From contig CAVTQK010000024.1 in the NCBI GenBank assembly GCA_963736855.1, positions 141,850-205,849 of the forward strand: a DNA stretch of 64,000 nt, given 5' to 3'. Under the pieces are notes generated by a model, which saw only the letters and a program-made list of their open reading frames with translations, was not told the DNA's origin and searched no databases. Below, piece by piece: positions 58,156-64,000 of the stretch. The stretch is from an uncultured delta proteobacterium. Its GTDB lineage: Bacteria; Desulfobacterota; Desulfobacteria; Desulfobacterales; UBA2156. Position 1 is the first letter of the stretch; every line of letters starts with the position of its first letter. A program made the position numbers and the translations under genes.

Positions 58156-59052
58156 TCATCCCCGGGGATGATACTGCCGGTGAATCTCCTTGAGGCGGTC
58201 CCGGGTCACGTGGGTATAGATCTGGGTGGTGGAGATATCCGCATGCCCCAGCATGGTCTGCACCGAGCGCAGGTCCGCCCCTCCTTCCAGGAGATGGCTG
58301 GCAAAGGAATGGCGGAAGGTATGGGGCTTGATGGTCTTTTGGATTCCGGTTTTCAGGGCGTACCGCTTGAGGATCTTCCAGAAGCCTTGCCGCGTCAGCG
58401 GTTTTCCTCCCGGCCCTAAAAAGAGGTAAGGACTCATCCGCCCTTTCGATAATAGCGGCCTTGTCCGGGCGAGATACTGATTCACTTTTTCCCGTGCAAA
58501 CCGACCGATGGGAACCAGGCGCTCCCGTGATCCCTTTCCGAGAACCCGGACAAGACCCACCTCCGTGTTGACATTTCTTATCCCCAACGTCACCAGCTCC
58601 GAAACGCGCAGTCCTGCCGCATAAAGCAGCTCCAGCATGGCCGCATCGCGGCTCCCCCGCGGGCTTTTCGGGTCCGGCGCATCCAGAATCTGTTTGACTT
58701 CCTCCACGGATAAAACATCCGGCAATTTCAAGGCGCCCTTGGGCAGGTCCACGATCCGTGTCGGATCGTGGGAGATCCGGTTTTCCTGAACGGCGAAACG
58801 GAAAAAACCCCGGAGGGCGACCAGGCTCCTGGCCCGGGAACGGGCCGAAATCCCCTCGTCCCGCAGGACAATGAGGTGTTTTAAAATCATCGGGGTATCG
58901 ATATCGGACAGGCCGGAGGCACCGCTTTTCATGGCGAACGCCAAAAACCGACCGATATCCCGGCTGTAGGCTTCGATGGTCTTTTTCGCAAGCCCCTTTT
59001 CCACGGTCAGATAATTCAGATACCGGTCGACTTCTTCATCCATCGATGCCAC
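58156..59052 (-). CDS. xerD: Site-specific tyrosine recombinase XerD
   Basis: LYAAGLRVSEL, GKGSRERLVP, TRQGFWK and PHTFRHSFASHLLEGGADLRSVQ.MLGHADISTTQIYTH motifs. Confidence 0.95.
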   Translation of the reverse strand: MASMDEEVDRYLNYLTVEKGLAKKTIEAYSRDIGRFLAFAMKSGASGLSDIDTPMILKHLIVLRDEGISARSRARSLVALRGFFRFAVQENRISHDPTRIVDLPKGALKLPDVLSVEEVKQILDAPDPKSPRGSRDAAMLELLYAAGLRVSELVTLGIRNVNTEVGLVRVLGKGSRERLVPIGRFAREKVNQYLARTRPLLSKGRMSPYLFLGPGGKPLTRQGFWKILKRYALKTGIQKTIKPHTFRHSFASHLLEGGADLRSVQTMLGHADISTTQIYTHVTRDRLKEIHRQYHPRG

Positions 59053-59119
59053 AGGATGGGTCCTTTAAAATCTTGAAGCGAAAATTGAGCCTGATGCCGC
59101 ATTTCATGAAATATGCGGG

Positions 59120-60106
59120 CTAACCGATTTTAAGATCGTCCAGGGGACTCGTCACGCCGTATCCGCCCTGTTGCAGCACATGGGTATATATCATGGTGGT
59201 GGATACGTCGTTGTGCCCTAATAGCGCCTGAATGGTTCGGATGTCATGCCCCTTTTCCAGCAAATGGGTCGCAAAGCTGTGCCGAAAGGTGTGAGCGCTG
59301 ATTTTCTTGTCAAGCCCGATTTTTGAAACAGCGACCTTGATGGCCTTATTGATGACGCTCGGATCGATGTGATGCCTTCGAATTTTTTCGCTTCGTGGGT
59401 CTTTGGATCGGGCGCTTGCCGGGAAAACGTATTGCCATCCCCATTGTTTGGCGGCGTTGGGATACTTGCGGGACAGGGCATGCGGTAAAAAGACCTCCCC
59501 GTAGCCCGCCGAAAGATCTTGTTGATGAATCGTTTTGACTCTTGCCAGATGTTCCAAAAGAAAGGGGACAACGGAGACAGGGAACGGCGTCACACGATCC
59601 TTGTCGCCCTTTCCGGACCGGACCGTCACGGTTTTGTATTTTAAATCCATATCCTGAACACGCAGCCGTATCGTCTCCGATATCCGCAGACCGCTGCCGT
59701 ACATGAGTTTGACTGCCAATTGGGAGGTATTGCTCATGGCGGCAATGACGGCGGCGACCTCTTCCCGGCTCATCACTACCGGAATATGTTCCTTTTTTCG
59801 CGAACGAACGGCCTGAATTTCTCCATCCAGGGCAACCCTGAGGATCTTTTTGTATAAAAATACCAGGGCATTCATGGCCTGGTTCTGGGTTGCGGGGGAT
59901 ATATTTTCTTCAACGGCAAGGTGAGTCAAAAAGGACTCGATCTTTTTTTCACCATCGGATAGATCTTGGCGGGATTGCATCCGGTGGAAAAAAACGAATC
60001 GCTTGATCCAATCGCAATAGGTTCGTTCCGTATGAATCGAATAATGATGCAATCGCATATAATTACGAACCTGATCCAGCAGTTTTTGATCTTTTTCGGT
60101 TGACAT
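59120..60106 (-). CDS. intI: Integron integrase
   Basis: HYSIHTERTY.DWI, TQNQAMNAL, the integron-specific insertion VFLPHALSRKYPNAAKQWGWQYVFP..DPR..RRHH, and HTFRHSFATHLL..LLGH.DV.TT.IY. Confidence 0.97.
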   Translation of the reverse strand: MSTEKDQKLLDQVRNYMRLHHYSIHTERTYCDWIKRFVFFHRMQSRQDLSDGEKKIESFLTHLAVEENISPATQNQAMNALVFLYKKILRVALDGEIQAVRSRKKEHIPVVMSREEVAAVIAAMSNTSQLAVKLMYGSGLRISETIRLRVQDMDLKYKTVTVRSGKGDKDRVTPFPVSVVPFLLEHLARVKTIHQQDLSAGYGEVFLPHALSRKYPNAAKQWGWQYVFPASARSKDPRSEKIRRHHIDPSVINKAIKVAVSKIGLDKKISAHTFRHSFATHLLEKGHDIRTIQALLGHNDVSTTMIYTHVLQQGGYGVTSPLDDLKIG

Positions 60107-60128
60107 AAGAAATTATTTTCCATATATC
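60100..60128 (+). promoter_or_regulatory. Putative cassette promoter Pc
   Basis: TTGACA-N17-TATATC overlapping the intI start codon and pointing toward attI. Confidence 0.55.
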
Positions 60129-60269
60129 CTGTTGTAATTTAATTGAAATATTATTAAAATAGCATCGGATCGGATTTTTAATTCAATAATATTATCAAGG
60201 AAATGTTTCCCGATATTCCAACTATCAGGGCGAATTGACCTGATAATCAATGGTTCAAGTAAGATTGCA

Positions 60270-60301
60270 TCAGGAAACATAATATATTCAAATAGTTAAA
60301 T
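60270..60301 (+). other. Putative attI site (core GTTAAAT at 60295-60301)
   Basis: GTTRRRY at the end of the AT-rich intI upstream region, immediately before the next ORF. Confidence 0.6.
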
Positions 60302-60323
60302 GCATACTGCTTTCTATGTTGGA

Positions 60324-61535
60324 ATGAAGACAGATTCTACTTCCGATATTCATCAGCACTGTGAAGTTGCAGACATTTTCAGATTGTATGGAGAAGTATA
60401 TCGTTCAAAAAACGGCATGACAAAAAAGCAATATAAGGTGATGACGGCCATTCAGGGATGCCGAACCAGCGAGTATGGCTACCATGTAGATTCATGCGAC
60501 CGATGCGGCTTCACCGAAAGCCGTTTCAACTCATGCCGGGACAGGCATTGCCCCAAATGCCAGGGCGTTTCCAGGCACAAATGGGTCAACTCACGCATCA
60601 AGGATATGCTTCCGGTATCCTACTATCACATTGTTTTCACACTACCCCATTTCCTCAATCCGATCACTCTCTACAACAAACGATTGGTCTACAATTTACT
60701 GCTGTCGAGTGCTTCCGACACGCTGCTGTCTTTCGGCCGAGATCCGAAGTGGCTGGGCGGGGAGATCGGATTTTACGGCATTTTGCACACCTGGGGCCAG
60801 ACGCTATGGCCGCATCCGCACATCCATTTCATCGTTCCCGGCGGCGCACTGACCCCTGACGGGCATTGGGTTGAGCCGAGATATAAAGATCAATTCCTAT
60901 TTCCGGTGAAGGCACTTTCCAGGGTTTTTCGAGGCAGATGCATCGAAGGACTGAAAACCGCCTATTATCGCGGTAAGTTGGTTTTGCCCCAGGACCTGAG
61001 CGAATTGAGACGAACCGATTTATTTGAAAGTTGGATCGACACCCTGGTTTCACAAGACTGGGTCATCTATTGTAAGCCTCCCTTCTCCGATGCCAAACAC
61101 GTGATTCGCTATATAGGCCGCTATACCCATCGTGTCGCTATCAGCAACCACCGCATCATCGATATTCATGACGGACAAGTTCACTTCTGGTACAAAGATT
61201 ACCGTTCTGATAATATCACCCATCAGGAGATGCGCCTGAGTGGCAGCGAGTTTATCCGCCGATTTCTTTTTCATGTGCTTCCCGACAGGTTTCATAAGAT
61301 CCGGCACTATGGATTCCTGGCCAATGGACGCAGCAAAGACATGATCGCCCGGATCCGGAAAATATTGAGAATCGGACAAACAGGCGATGGAATCCCTACC
61401 GATCCATTCAGACCCAGGTGTCCCAAGTGCAACAAGGGCTTCCTGAACCCTGTAACGATCATGAATCGATGGGGACAGAATATTGCCGGGTGGATCCGAT
61501 TTGTTAAAATAGGCTATGCTTTTGATACATCATGA
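60324..61535 (+). CDS. IS91-family HUH/Y2 transposase, intact (ORF open from 60300)
   Basis: Zn-binding CRT..C..C..NSCRDRHCPKCQ, H.VFTLP, HUH region LHTWGQ..HPHIH, Y2 motif YIGRY, and EFIRRFL.HVLP..F.KIRHYG. Confidence 0.93.
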   Translation: MKTDSTSDIHQHCEVADIFRLYGEVYRSKNGMTKKQYKVMTAIQGCRTSEYGYHVDSCDRCGFTESRFNSCRDRHCPKCQGVSRHKWVNSRIKDMLPVSYYHIVFTLPHFLNPITLYNKRLVYNLLLSSASDTLLSFGRDPKWLGGEIGFYGILHTWGQTLWPHPHIHFIVPGGALTPDGHWVEPRYKDQFLFPVKALSRVFRGRCIEGLKTAYYRGKLVLPQDLSELRRTDLFESWIDTLVSQDWVIYCKPPFSDAKHVIRYIGRYTHRVAISNHRIIDIHDGQVHFWYKDYRSDNITHQEMRLSGSEFIRRFLFHVLPDRFHKIRHYGFLANGRSKDMIARIRKILRIGQTGDGIPTDPFRPRCPKCNKGFLNPVTIMNRWGQNIAGWIRFVKIGYAFDTS

Positions 61536-61588
61536 GGATCCGGCAAAGACCAAAGGTACTTTCCACCATCTAAAATAGGTGGAAGTGT

Positions 61589-61645
61589 ATTGAACCTATA
61601 AGGATTGACACGACCTGGAAGGTCGTTTTCAATCCATTGTTCAAG
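61589..61645 (+). other. attC-like hairpin
   Basis: ATTGAAC...GTTCAAG with pairing TTGAAC/GTTCAA, GGATTGA/TCAATCC and ACGACC/GGTCGT; 57 bp, 54 nt after the transposase stop. Confidence 0.6.
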
Positions 61646-61912
61646 AAGCCCGGATAGGGCGCACTATTTATTAAGGGTGATGCTTGGAGAGGTATCAGGG
61701 AGGGTTTAGCCGGAGTATGGTGTTGCCGATAAAGAATCGGAGCCGGCCGTTATAATCGAATCGTTTATTTTCAGAATCAGCTAAGAATCGACCGTTCTTT
61801 GACAAGTAGAACCGGACAGCGCATCGTTTTGGCAGCCGCAGGGCGCAGTTATCCTGTGCCGCCGGATTATCAGGCAGCGAATTGATGAAGATAAGCCAAC
61901 CTTAAGTCCTGT

Positions 61913-63010
61913 TTATCCGTGCCCTGCCGGGGCCATCATAAACGGCAGCACCGAATAGAGGTATTTCAGTTTGCCGCCGCAATGCGGGCAGATTGGCGGT
62001 GTGTGCGGCGCAAAGGATGCTTTGCGGCAGGCAATTTCAAACCCATAAGCTATTTGTATTAGCGTGCGGATCTTATTCAACGGAACAGAGGAACAAGGGT
62101 GCAAAAAGCCATAGTAACGGACCTTCATAAAGCCGGTTGGCAGAACGTGCTGTAAGAAGCGTCTTAGAAATTCCATGACATCAAGGGACATGGTGCGCCA
62201 GCGCCGGCTATCTTTTTTCTTATAACGAATGAAGACGTTGCGATCTTGTACCTTAACGATGCGGCGATTTGAGATGGCGACCTTAAACACATAGGGGGCC
62301 AGATACCTGACGCTGTGCTCGCTGCTGCCCACGGGTTGGCAGTTCACATTCCAGTCGATTTTCCACACCTCAGCGGGAATGGAACTTAAAAGATCTGTTT
62401 TTTTGATTTCATCACGAAATTTGGCTTTAAATATTTTCGACATGGCCCGGACCGGCAGATAAAAATCGATGCGAGCGCAATGCCAGGTGTTTTCTTTTGT
62501 GGACAAAGCGCCGGCGGCGACGATGTAGTGGATATGGGGATGGTACTGCAGCTGACGGCCCCAGGTGTGCAGTACGCCGAAGAAACCTGGAAGATCGCCG
62601 CCGATGAATTTTTCATCGGCGGACAGTTTTTTGAGCGTATCGGCGAAGAAGCTTTGAACAGTGGCCGCATAGCAGCAGCCGCTGGTTGCTGCGGATAAAG
62701 CGGCGTAATTGTTCAGGGACGGTAAAGGTGATCATGAAATGATGGACCGGGCAATTGTCGCTCCAATTGCGTTTCAAGCCATTGCCGGGTTTTATGATGC
62801 TGACAGGAGGGACAATGGCGGTTGCCGCAGGATCGAACACCGAATGGGAGCTGTCGCATTTATCACACTGGTAAATGGTATGCCGCAGCTTTCGGTGCGG
62901 CAATCGATGATGGCATCGATGACTTTTCGTGTTCATTTGGCATGGCATCGCCAAAGCGATGGATATACTCAGGTGCGTAGTTCTGGAAGATATCTTTAAT
63001 CGTTAGTCAT
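61913..63010 (-). pseudogene. IS91-family transposase with multiple frameshifts
   Basis: Fragments in several frames: Zn-finger Cys cluster, HFMITFTVPE, LHTWGRQLQYHPHIH, YLAPY and EFLRRFLQHVLPTGFMKVRYYG. Confidence 0.85.
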
Positions 63011-63881
63011 GGTCATCTCCCTTCATCAGGTCGTTGATGATGCCGTAGGCGCGTTCATGTCCTTGTGTGGTCAGGTGCAGATAGACCATGGTTGAGTTCA
63101 GGCTGTGATGTCCCAGATATTGCTGGATACGGCGGATATTGACGCCGGCCTCCAGCAGATGGGTGGCATAGCTGTGGCGCAGGGTGTGGATGGAGACACG
63201 TTTTTTGAATTTAAGCTGTTTCAATACCCGACGCAGGGCGCCTTGAACGGAGGATTTAGTTCATGGGGATGTTGGCGGTAGGTCCTTCTTTGCCGCTGCG
63301 GCCCAGCCGAGGGAAGATCCAGGCTGGATTTCGATGGAGCTTCCAGTAAGTCTCTTAAAATGTGAGGGTCGACTTCGGAAGGGGACATATCGGTCTTTAG
63401 CGCCTTTGCCGCGATGGACGTGAATGCGCATGCGATCGCTGTCGATATCGCTGACCTGAAGATAGAGGGCTTCATGCAGTCTGAGGCCGCAGGAATAGAC
63501 GGTGGTCAGATATGCTTTGTTTTGAGGGGTTTTTACCGCATCAAGGATGGCGCACACCTCGTCGACGCTCAGGACGGTAGGCAGCCGTTGTTCGCGTTTG
63601 GCATGGATCAGTTCCAGGGTGTGCCAGTCACGCTTGAGCACATTAATAAAAAAGAATTTGATGCCGCTGTAGCAGATGCGCATGGTGGCAGCAGACCATT
63701 TGTCGACGTTTCTGCGGTGCAGGAAATAATCCTGAAGTTGCATTTCGCTGATTTGATCGGGGGTTTTGTTGTAAAAATCAACGAGCATGCGAACGGATCT
63801 TGTATAGCATTGCTGAGTACGCTCGCTCATCCCGGCAAGTTGCAGGGCTCTCATGGAGTTTTGGTAATAGTCTTTCGTCAT
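63003..63881 (-). pseudogene. Tyrosine recombinase (phage integrase family) with frameshifts
   Basis: YSCGLRLHE and GKGAKDRYVP in one frame; [21 protein letters not shown] in another. Confidence 0.85.
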
Positions 63882-64000
63882 AGCCTCTCTCCTTTCATTT
63901 GAAGGGTTTATTGGATGGGGATCCGATATGAGAGGTATGACAGAGAATTATAGAAGCTTTTGCAACCTGCCCGGGATGACCTTATTCGCGAGGACTACTG

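What the first reader, a model, noticed from the sequence alone, without database searches (positions are those of the whole stretch)
61557..61660. Two different IS91-like elements meet tail-to-tail, each ending in TTGAAC, on the two arms of one attC-like hairpin
Seen: element A (+) ends with hairpin TTCCACC/GGTGGAA then GTGTATTGAAC (to 61595). Element B (-) ends with hairpin GCCC/GGGC then TTCTTGAAC (GTTCAA at 61639-61644). Only a 43-nt palindromic core lies between them. Known: GAAC/GTTC is an IS91 target tetranucleotide, and AAC/GTT is the invariant attC core triplet. Inference: these elements target or rebuild the R boxes of attC sites, so their ends double as integron recombination cores. 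Caveat: one spacer is 8 nt rather than the canonical 5, and both cores deviate from RYYYAAC/GTTRRRY.
Basis: partly seen in the sequence, partly recalled or inferred. Interest (0 to 1): 0.82.

Follow-up and report, generated by a model that had tools for sequence, protein, structure and literature searches.

The report
Transposon landed in a transposase cassette
One rolling-circle jumping gene that homes on integron cassette sites has landed backwards in the recombination site of a related transposase gene that itself travels as the first cassette of an integron, so the hairpin between them belongs to the invader alone.

Summary
The letters are as described, but the reading changes. The 43-nt palindrome is not a shared target: it is the constant end of element B (tyrosine recombinase plus IS91-type transposase), present in its two other copies in this genome and in relatives. 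B ends at the AAC/GTT triplet 61593-61595. B-type elements sit inverted at the R'' box of attC sites (inverted attC remainder in 11 of 26 left flanks, forward in 0 of 26). GTTC follows in only 3 of 29 junctions, so the IS91 tetranucleotide is not the target. Element A is different: a recombinase-less transposase cassette at the attI of a true integron integrase. Its relatives form one clade with canonical attC sites (17 of 18), and a B-free allele continues into a normal attC. So B cut A's attC at R''. The two TTGAAC pair because both ends descend from one family motif. The scan noted both element types before on other DNA; I found only a passing mention in print. Which enzyme cuts is inferred, not shown.

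The parts
59120..60106 (-). Integron integrase gene intI, 328 aa, intact, with the integron-specific insertion
   Evidence: TIGR02249 438 bits, cut-off 265; 31-aa insertion absent from XerD and B-type recombinases
60241..60255 (+). attI-like simple site; crossover G|TT at 60253/60254
   Evidence: Copies in G000 C14 and C16 are followed by other cassettes whose R'' is the exact complement of their start; other sequences follow it in 3 of 4 runs laid; same site in front of relative L109
60254..61595 (+). Element A: recombinase-less IS91-type transposase cassette in first position, its attC cut after R''
   Evidence: Start shared with relatives; near-identical allele in run X2 begins at 60253 behind another attC-like flank and ends in a canonical attC
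60300..61535 (+). HUH/Y2 transposase of A, 411 aa, open; true start codon not determined
   Evidence: PF04986, PF14319, NF033538; HxH and YxxxY motifs present
61558..61569 (+).
   Evidence: 15 of 18 A-clade ends versus 2 of 51 other attC sites; function inferred
61589..61595 (+). R'' box of A's attC (ATTGAAC), the target of B
   Evidence: Relatives carry CTTGAAC or CTCGAAC here, followed by a 5-nt spacer and L''
61595..61645 (-). Terminal attC-like hairpin of B: R''-like 61645-61639, spacer 61638-61634, L''-like 61633-61626, L'-like 61610-61604, 8-nt spacer 61603-61596, junction at G|TT
   Evidence: Constant in 3 of 3 G000 copies; conserved in relatives, 3 of 12 pairs with a two-sided change; geometry
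61646..61653 (-). Conserved CCGGGCTT motif of B-type ends
   Evidence: Seen in most B-type ends printed (by eye)
61913..63012 (-). IS91-type transposase gene of B, broken by frameshifts in this assembly
   Evidence: contigs of runs X19 and X3 lack several of these extra letters
63003..63881 (-). Tyrosine recombinase gene of B, interrupted in this assembly; no integron-specific insertion
   Evidence: PF13495 + PF00589; below the TIGR02249 cut-off
63882..64000 (-). Left part of B; its left end is predicted about 32 nt beyond the contig end and is not observed
   Evidence: Start-to-gene distance 154 nt in the C9 copy, 122 nt available here

Best explanation
Shown by comparison: the junction is one insertion, not two. 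A is a gene cassette whose only gene is an IS91-type HUH transposase; it sits at attI of an integron and had a canonical attC. B is a two-gene IS91-type element (tyrosine recombinase + HUH transposase) whose right end is an attC-like hairpin. B inserted in inverted orientation at the AAC of A's R'' box, as its relatives do at ordinary cassettes. Inferred mechanism: A was placed at attI by the integron integrase. B's transposase peels off B's antisense strand as a single-stranded circle, as IS91 does, and joins it into the top strand of a folded attC between AA and C of R''. B's left end reads ...TTGAAC on that strand, so it rebuilds R'' for the rest of the attC and B rides inside the host cassette. 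The apparent perfect hairpin arises because A's R'' and B's R''-like box are the same family motif, so this junction mimics B's own circle junction. The role of B's recombinase is unknown; this copy of B looks dead.
For: Core constant in 3 of 3 copies. B left flanks: inverted attC remainder score >=8 of 11 in 11 of 26, forward 0 of 26; random GTT sites 11 and 7 of 1000. Convergent ORF ending at B's right junction in 13 of 27 (random 120 of 1000). Eight copies in G474 share both ends with varied flanks. A clade: own end canonical in 17 of 18; forward attC in front in 6 of 16; forward ORF behind in 11 of 14, convergent in 1 of 14. Start covaries with R'' (GTTCAAG/CTTGAAC, GTTCGAG/CTCGAAC). B-free allele with canonical attC in run X2. 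Recombinase-less clade of 22 rows, SH-aLRT 99. B-type recombinases lack the 31-aa IntI insertion. IS91's functional intermediate is the bottom-strand circle (PMC13181058); IntI recombines only the attC bottom strand (PMC11023631).
Against: B's far end and the rest of A's attC lie beyond the contig end and were not found in G000. No listed contig of the 4 runs bridges the A|B junction, and 61585-61592 differs from the X2 allele. 11 of 26 B left flanks score under 7 for an inverted attC. Eight B rows come from one genome. I picked the A-clade AAC anchors by eye, which inflates the 17 of 18. Four of 16 A left flanks also score >=7 as inverted. The cut position seen in a sister family (N|TT) equals that of IntI, so sequence cannot tell transposase from recombinase; one contig in X19 points to a cut one base away. 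The tree is a quick, unrooted one.
Confidence: 0.72

Rival explanations
1. Same anatomy, but B is integrated by a tyrosine recombinase (its own, or host IntI acting on the attC top strand), with the transposase only making the circle.
For: Boundaries fall at N|TT like IntI crossovers (sister family: base before TT varies G8 A6 T2 C1 of 17 at the left end, A in 12 of 13 at the right). B's joined ends would fold like an attC. The recombinase is full length with its catalytic motifs in 11 of 13 relatives.
Against: No IntI-type insertion, which contacts the extrahelical base (PMC3053210). B's own end fails canonical geometry in 29 of 29. IntI normally uses the bottom strand, which gives forward insertion.
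Confidence: 0.17
2. A is an ordinary cassette that once captured a transposase gene; the enzyme does nothing for the cassette's own movement.
For: Its attC, start and position are fully those of normal cassettes. The long start/R'' complement is not special: 8 or more bases in 8 of 13 ordinary cassettes. No A-type copy was clearly seen outside an integron-like site.
Against: One clade across 45-63% identity keeps HxH and YxxxY in 21 of 21 rows, dN is well below dS in all 6 measurable pairs, and a non-coding motif is kept 31-54 nt before R'' in 15 of 18 versus 2 of 51 controls. Two or three copies per genome in G905, G821, G858.
Confidence: 0.25
3. One reading: two elements each end in TTGAAC and inserted at the two arms of a pre-existing attC through the IS91 GAAC/GTTC target.
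For: The local sequence looks symmetric and folds strongly; GTTC is a known IS91-family target (PMC13181058).
Against: The core travels with B; GTTC in 3 of 29 junctions; A's allele and relatives continue past TTGAAC into their own attC.
Confidence: 0.02
4. The A|B junction is an assembly error.
For: B has extra letters that other runs lack, the contig ends inside B, and no listed contig bridges the junction.
Against: The break falls exactly on the triplet where B ends in every other context and on A's R''; it lies 2.4 kb from the contig end; a similar element-in-element junction occurs in L037.
Confidence: 0.04

Closest known systems
IS91 family (IS91, IS801, IS1294, IS1294b; PMC13181058, passages read)
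   Same: HUH/Y2 transposase with zinc-binding domain; two unlike ends with subterminal palindromes; no target duplication beyond a shared triplet.
   Different: No GTTC/CTTG tetranucleotide preference; ends are built like attC; B carries a tyrosine recombinase; A is a cassette.
IS91-like elements with an upstream tyrosine recombinase (ISShvi3, ISAzo26 group; the grouping is recalled from ISfinder and from earlier scan notes, not tested)
   Same: Recombinase + transposase layout of B. [quoted passage not shown]
   Different: No paper I found describes inverted homing to R'', the attC-like end, or a recombinase-less cassette clade.
IS1111-attC elements and group IIC-attC introns (PMC3001079, passages read)
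   Same: Insert near the 5' end of attC sites, opposite to cassette transcription.
   Different: Different enzymes (IS110-family recombinase, reverse transcriptase); B uses an HUH transposase and carries its own attC-like hairpin.
Integron gene cassettes (PMC3053210, PMC11023631, passages read)
   Same: A: G|TT boundaries, start complementary to R'', canonical attC, forward orientation, first position at attI.
   Different: The cargo is a conserved, apparently active DNA-moving enzyme with a retained cis motif. B fails cassette geometry and orientation.

Membership tests
IS91 family (A and B) | HUH/Y2 transposase (PF04986 + PF14319; HxH and YxxxY) | tested here: met
   B only in pieces in this assembly
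IS91 family (A and B) | Target tetranucleotide GTTC/CTTG/GTCC at oriIS | tested here: not met
   B junctions GTTA 17, GTTG 8, GTTC 3, GTGT 1 of 29
IS91 family (A and B) | No target-site duplication | tested here: inconclusive
   Only GTT is shared by both junctions in G474 copies; no empty allele of a B site was aligned
IS91 family (A and B) | Rolling-circle transposition through single-stranded circles | not testable with these tools
   Needs experiment
Integron gene cassette (A) | Ends in canonical attC (R'', 5-nt spacer, L'' with extra base, L', R') | tested here: met
   17 of 18 relatives score >=7 of 11; X2 allele shows R'', spacer, L''; in the window only R'' remains
Integron gene cassette (A) | Begins at G|TT, start complementary to own R'' | tested here: met
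   8-14 matching bases in 15 of 16 rows with both ends, 5 in one; window 6 of 7
Integron gene cassette (A) | Found at attI or behind forward attC, in varying positions | tested here: met
   Window at attI beside intI; forward attC in 6 of 16, attI-like by eye in 7 of 16; other flank in X2
Integron gene cassette (A) | Excised and integrated by IntI | not testable with these tools
   Needs experiment
Integron gene cassette (B) | Canonical attC geometry | tested here: not met
   0 of 29 reach 7 of 11 with 5-6 nt spacers; 8-nt spacer here
Integron gene cassette (B) | Forward orientation in arrays | tested here: not met
   Forward 0 of 26, inverted 11 of 26 at score >=8
Integron integrase (B recombinase) | Additional domain with the I2 helix; TIGR02249 cut-off | tested here: not met
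   31-aa gap in 13 of 13 relatives; 105.6 bits versus 265 for the window fragment
IS1111-attC / group IIC-attC introns (B) | IS110-type transposase or intron-encoded reverse transcriptase | tested here: not met
   Only IS91 and tyrosine recombinase families hit

The most novel reading that the evidence does not exclude
One IS91-type lineage exploits integrons in two ways, and this locus shows both at once. Recombinase-bearing members (B) are attC-homing parasites that insert into the top strand at R''. A derived, recombinase-less clade (A) has turned its end into a canonical attC and become a self-copying cassette: its HUH enzyme peels off the bottom strand as a circle whose junction is a ready-folded attC, and the host IntI pastes it in at attI. 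That would be copy-out by a transposase and paste-in by an integron integrase, and by failed termination it could copy out neighbouring cassettes or mint new ones.
Probability: 0.3. Interest if true: 0.85.

Novelty: new variant of a known kind. Interest (0 to 1): 0.62.

Why it matters
It would add a third class of attC-targeting elements and the first cassette that encodes its own copying enzyme. How cassettes and attC sites arise is a long-standing open question (own knowledge). A family whose ends grade from attC-like (B) to canonical attC (A), and whose recombinase resembles IntI minus its special domain, offers a testable source of single-stranded cassette circles. This locus gives matched parts for the test: IntI, attI, cassette A and invader B. 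The junction itself is an expected meeting of the two types, not a new structure.

Tried and rejected
Rfam search of 59000-64000 at E<=5: 0 matches. Search of G000 for B's missing left end or the rest of A's attC: not found. 'The long start/R'' complement is special to A': rejected, ordinary cassettes give 8 or more bases in 8 of 13. 'A is enriched at attI': 7 of 16 by eye plus the window, with no fair baseline; left open. 'B prefers A-type attC': not supported, the window is the only such case among 29 junctions; convergent transposase pairs occur in 4 of 296 loci with a hit, two being the window itself, one L037, one (L128) without a clear shared junction. Promoter scan of 60050-60420: 1 site, shuffles 2.3, uninformative. 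Viral contigs: 2 distant loci, not used. Plasmids: 388 records, all under 60% identity, not followed. The B-clade right-end tally used a loose pattern and was discarded in favour. One search used wrong coordinates and was redone. PMC5009743 hits were IS911, irrelevant; PMC7923331 and PMC3971601 passages do not describe these elements. No structure or complex prediction was run.

Full report
Setting. The window is the end of contig C24 of G000. From left to right lie xerD (58156-59052, -), a true integron integrase (59120-60106, -; TIGR02249 438 bits, cut-off 265), transposase A (60300-61535, +; NF033538 411 bits), and element B on the minus strand: a frameshifted IS91-type transposase and an interrupted tyrosine recombinase. 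The closest named relatives of A are deltaproteobacterial and Desulfobacterales metagenome bins.

Observation. The symmetry is misleading, however. With attC geometry as the test (R'', 5-nt spacer, 8-nt L'' with one extra base, 7-nt L', GTT; my scoring rule, from own knowledge and PMC3053210), the plus strand gives at most 3 of 11 pairs. The minus strand gives 9 of 11 only when the spacer before GTT is 8 nt.

The core belongs to B. B has two more copies in G000 (C9, 89%; C19, 85%). All three share the whole 43-nt core and diverge right after GTT. Relatives found in 28 other genomes of 401 searched mostly end the same way. Twelve aligned ends keep the inner stem, with two-sided changes in 3 of 12 pairs, and lose the outer TTGAAC/GTTCAA pairing. 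Eight copies in genome G474 share both ends and differ in flanks. The four bases at the right junction are GTTA 17, GTTG 8, GTTC 3 and GTGT 1 of 29 (32 rows, 3 without a scored right end). The IS91 targets CTTG/GTTC (PMC13181058) therefore do not apply.

B homes to R'' in inverted orientation. Of 26 B-type elements with a left flank, 11 have the remainder of an attC in the opposite orientation at score 8 or more (15 at 7 or more); none has a forward attC at 8 or more (1 at 7). Random GTT sites in G000 reach 8 in 11 (inverted) and 7 (forward) of 1000. A convergent ORF of 80 or more codons stops within 45 nt of the right junction in 13 of 27 (random 120 of 1000). B's own end never passes the canonical test (0 of 29 at 7 or more) (all). 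Eight rows come from one genome, and 11 of 26 flanks show no clear attC. Since B's left end reads ...TTGAAC on the target's top strand, insertion rebuilds R'' ahead of the 5-nt spacer. I first read B as a cassette; earlier scan notes moved me to attC homing, which I then tested.

A is a cassette at attI. The site before A (G|TT at 60253/60254) recurs in C14 and C16, where the next cassette's R'' is the exact complement of its start, and other sequences follow it in runs X1, X19 and X3. In run X2 a contig matching A's right end (2 differences in 108) leaves the window at 61584 and continues into CTTGAAC, a 5-nt spacer and an L'' box. A contig of X1 (1 difference in 516) leaves at the same place, though its further letters were not shown. 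Another X2 contig has A's start behind a different, attC-like flank. So A moves as a G|TT-bounded unit and its attC was cut by B.

A's relatives have no recombinase. I scored 19 hand-picked rows, counting once any locus reached by two searches; four further clade members (L004, L111, L251, L253) were left out of that table, two of them used. Own ends score 7 or more in 17 of 18; I chose the AAC by eye, so this is generous. A forward attC precedes 6 of 16 (score 8 or more), one scores 8 as inverted, and 7 of 16 look attI-like by eye. A forward ORF follows in 11 of 14 (random 49%), a convergent one in 1 of 14. Starts covary with R''. In a quick tree of 100 transposases the recombinase-less cassettes form one group of 22 rows (19 without recombinase, 3 too short to judge; SH-aLRT 99) among recombinase-bearing groups; three other recombinase-less rows fall elsewhere, and the root is not tested. 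HxH and YxxxY are kept in 21 of 21 clade rows; dN/dS is about 0.15-0.4 in the 6 measurable pairs of 9. The long start/R'' complement is not special (8 of 13 ordinary cassettes).

Why the ends match. A and B start with the same GTTCAAGTAAG, and each has an R''-like box complementary to that start. B landing in A's R'' therefore puts TTGAAC opposite GTTCAA, as in B's own predicted circle junction. A second element-in-element, tail-to-tail junction occurs in L037, one to two bases off the expected point.

Mechanism. Shown: boundaries, orientation, family membership. Inferred: enzymes. IS91's working intermediate is the bottom-strand circle, and IntI uses only the attC bottom strand, which fixes forward insertion (PMC11023631). 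For B the antisense strand joins the attC top strand, which IntI would not normally do, and B-type recombinases lack the 31-aa IntI insertion (13 of 13). The HUH transposase is thus the likelier agent. For A the antisense strand is the attC bottom strand, so a rolling-circle product would be a direct IntI substrate; that is the novel case. The cut appears to be N|TT: in a sister family the base before TT varies at the left end (G8 A6 T2 C1 of 17) and is A in 12 of 13 right ends, and duplicated terminal hairpins in L277 and L285 begin at G|TTGAAC. One X19 contig suggests a cut one base away. This position is also IntI's, so sequence alone cannot name the enzyme.

Limits. B's left end is about 32 nt beyond the contig; the rest of A's attC was not found in G000. 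No listed contig bridges the junction, and 61585-61592 differs from the X2 allele without explanation.

Literature. Nine searches found no description of attC-homing IS91-type elements or of transposase-only IS91 cassettes. The nearest is one sentence on ISShvi3 beside an attC (PMC9229058, passages; its Figure S2 was not seen and may show more). Passages were read in PMC3001079, PMC13181058, PMC11023631, PMC3053210, PMC3971601, PMC7923331 and PMC5009743; PMC7790495 only as a search listing. Tetu and Holmes 2008 and Post and Hall 2009 were seen only as references. ISfinder entries are recalled. Subscription papers were not searchable. The scan has noted both element types before on other DNA (32 notes held all words); I saw no note on the two nested together.

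Verdict. Real feature, wrong geometry, right instinct. New variant of a known kind; interest 0.62.

Noticed in passing
window 61585-61592: These eight bases before A's AAC differ from the X2 allele, which carries a 13-nt complement of A's own start, while the adjoining 108 nt differ at only 2 places. Unexplained.
   Followed up: partly
G000 C14:67240-67301, C16:7105-7169 and C16:1869-1923: Copies of the attI-like site with no intI hit in the stretches tested; the first cassette in C16 has no ORF between attI and its attC.
   Followed up: partly
G000 C9:431089: A lone B-type left end with an attC-like flank and no element behind it, next to a gene that looks like gltX.
   Followed up: no
G000 C17:50000-52340: A third, distant recombinase + IS91 element that also ends in an attC-like hairpin.
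   Followed up: no
L277 right end, L285 left end, L284 right end, L014 right end: Duplicated terminal hairpin units, and a 7-nt unit repeated several times, at element junctions; possibly mini-circles or re-initiation products.
   Followed up: partly
L242, L269, L268, L271, L251, L059, L003, upstream of the transposase: The longer A-clade cassettes seem to carry a small ORF before the transposase where the recombinase would be; several look related by eye.
   Followed up: no
L267:3500-6500 (G905): Two tandem copies of an A-type cassette, about 99% identical, the first at an attI-like site.
   Followed up: partly
L037:3500-4250: Two recombinase-bearing IS91-type elements tail to tail in an Acidobacteriota bin, one ending inside the other's R''-like box.
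   Followed up: partly
L004: An A-clade transposase with a canonical-looking attC in a contig binned as a Methanosarcinaceae archaeon.
   Followed up: no
L224 and L226 (G474): Two copies share the same right flank but have different attC remainders on the left, suggesting recombination between copies.
   Followed up: no
L221 right flank (G474): The flank begins like a group II intron 5' end (motif recalled), which would put two attC-targeting elements at one site.
   Followed up: no
window 58156-60106: A xerD gene lies directly downstream of intI on the same strand; G000 holds at least four more intI-like genes or fragments (C13, C19, C21, C22).
   Followed up: no
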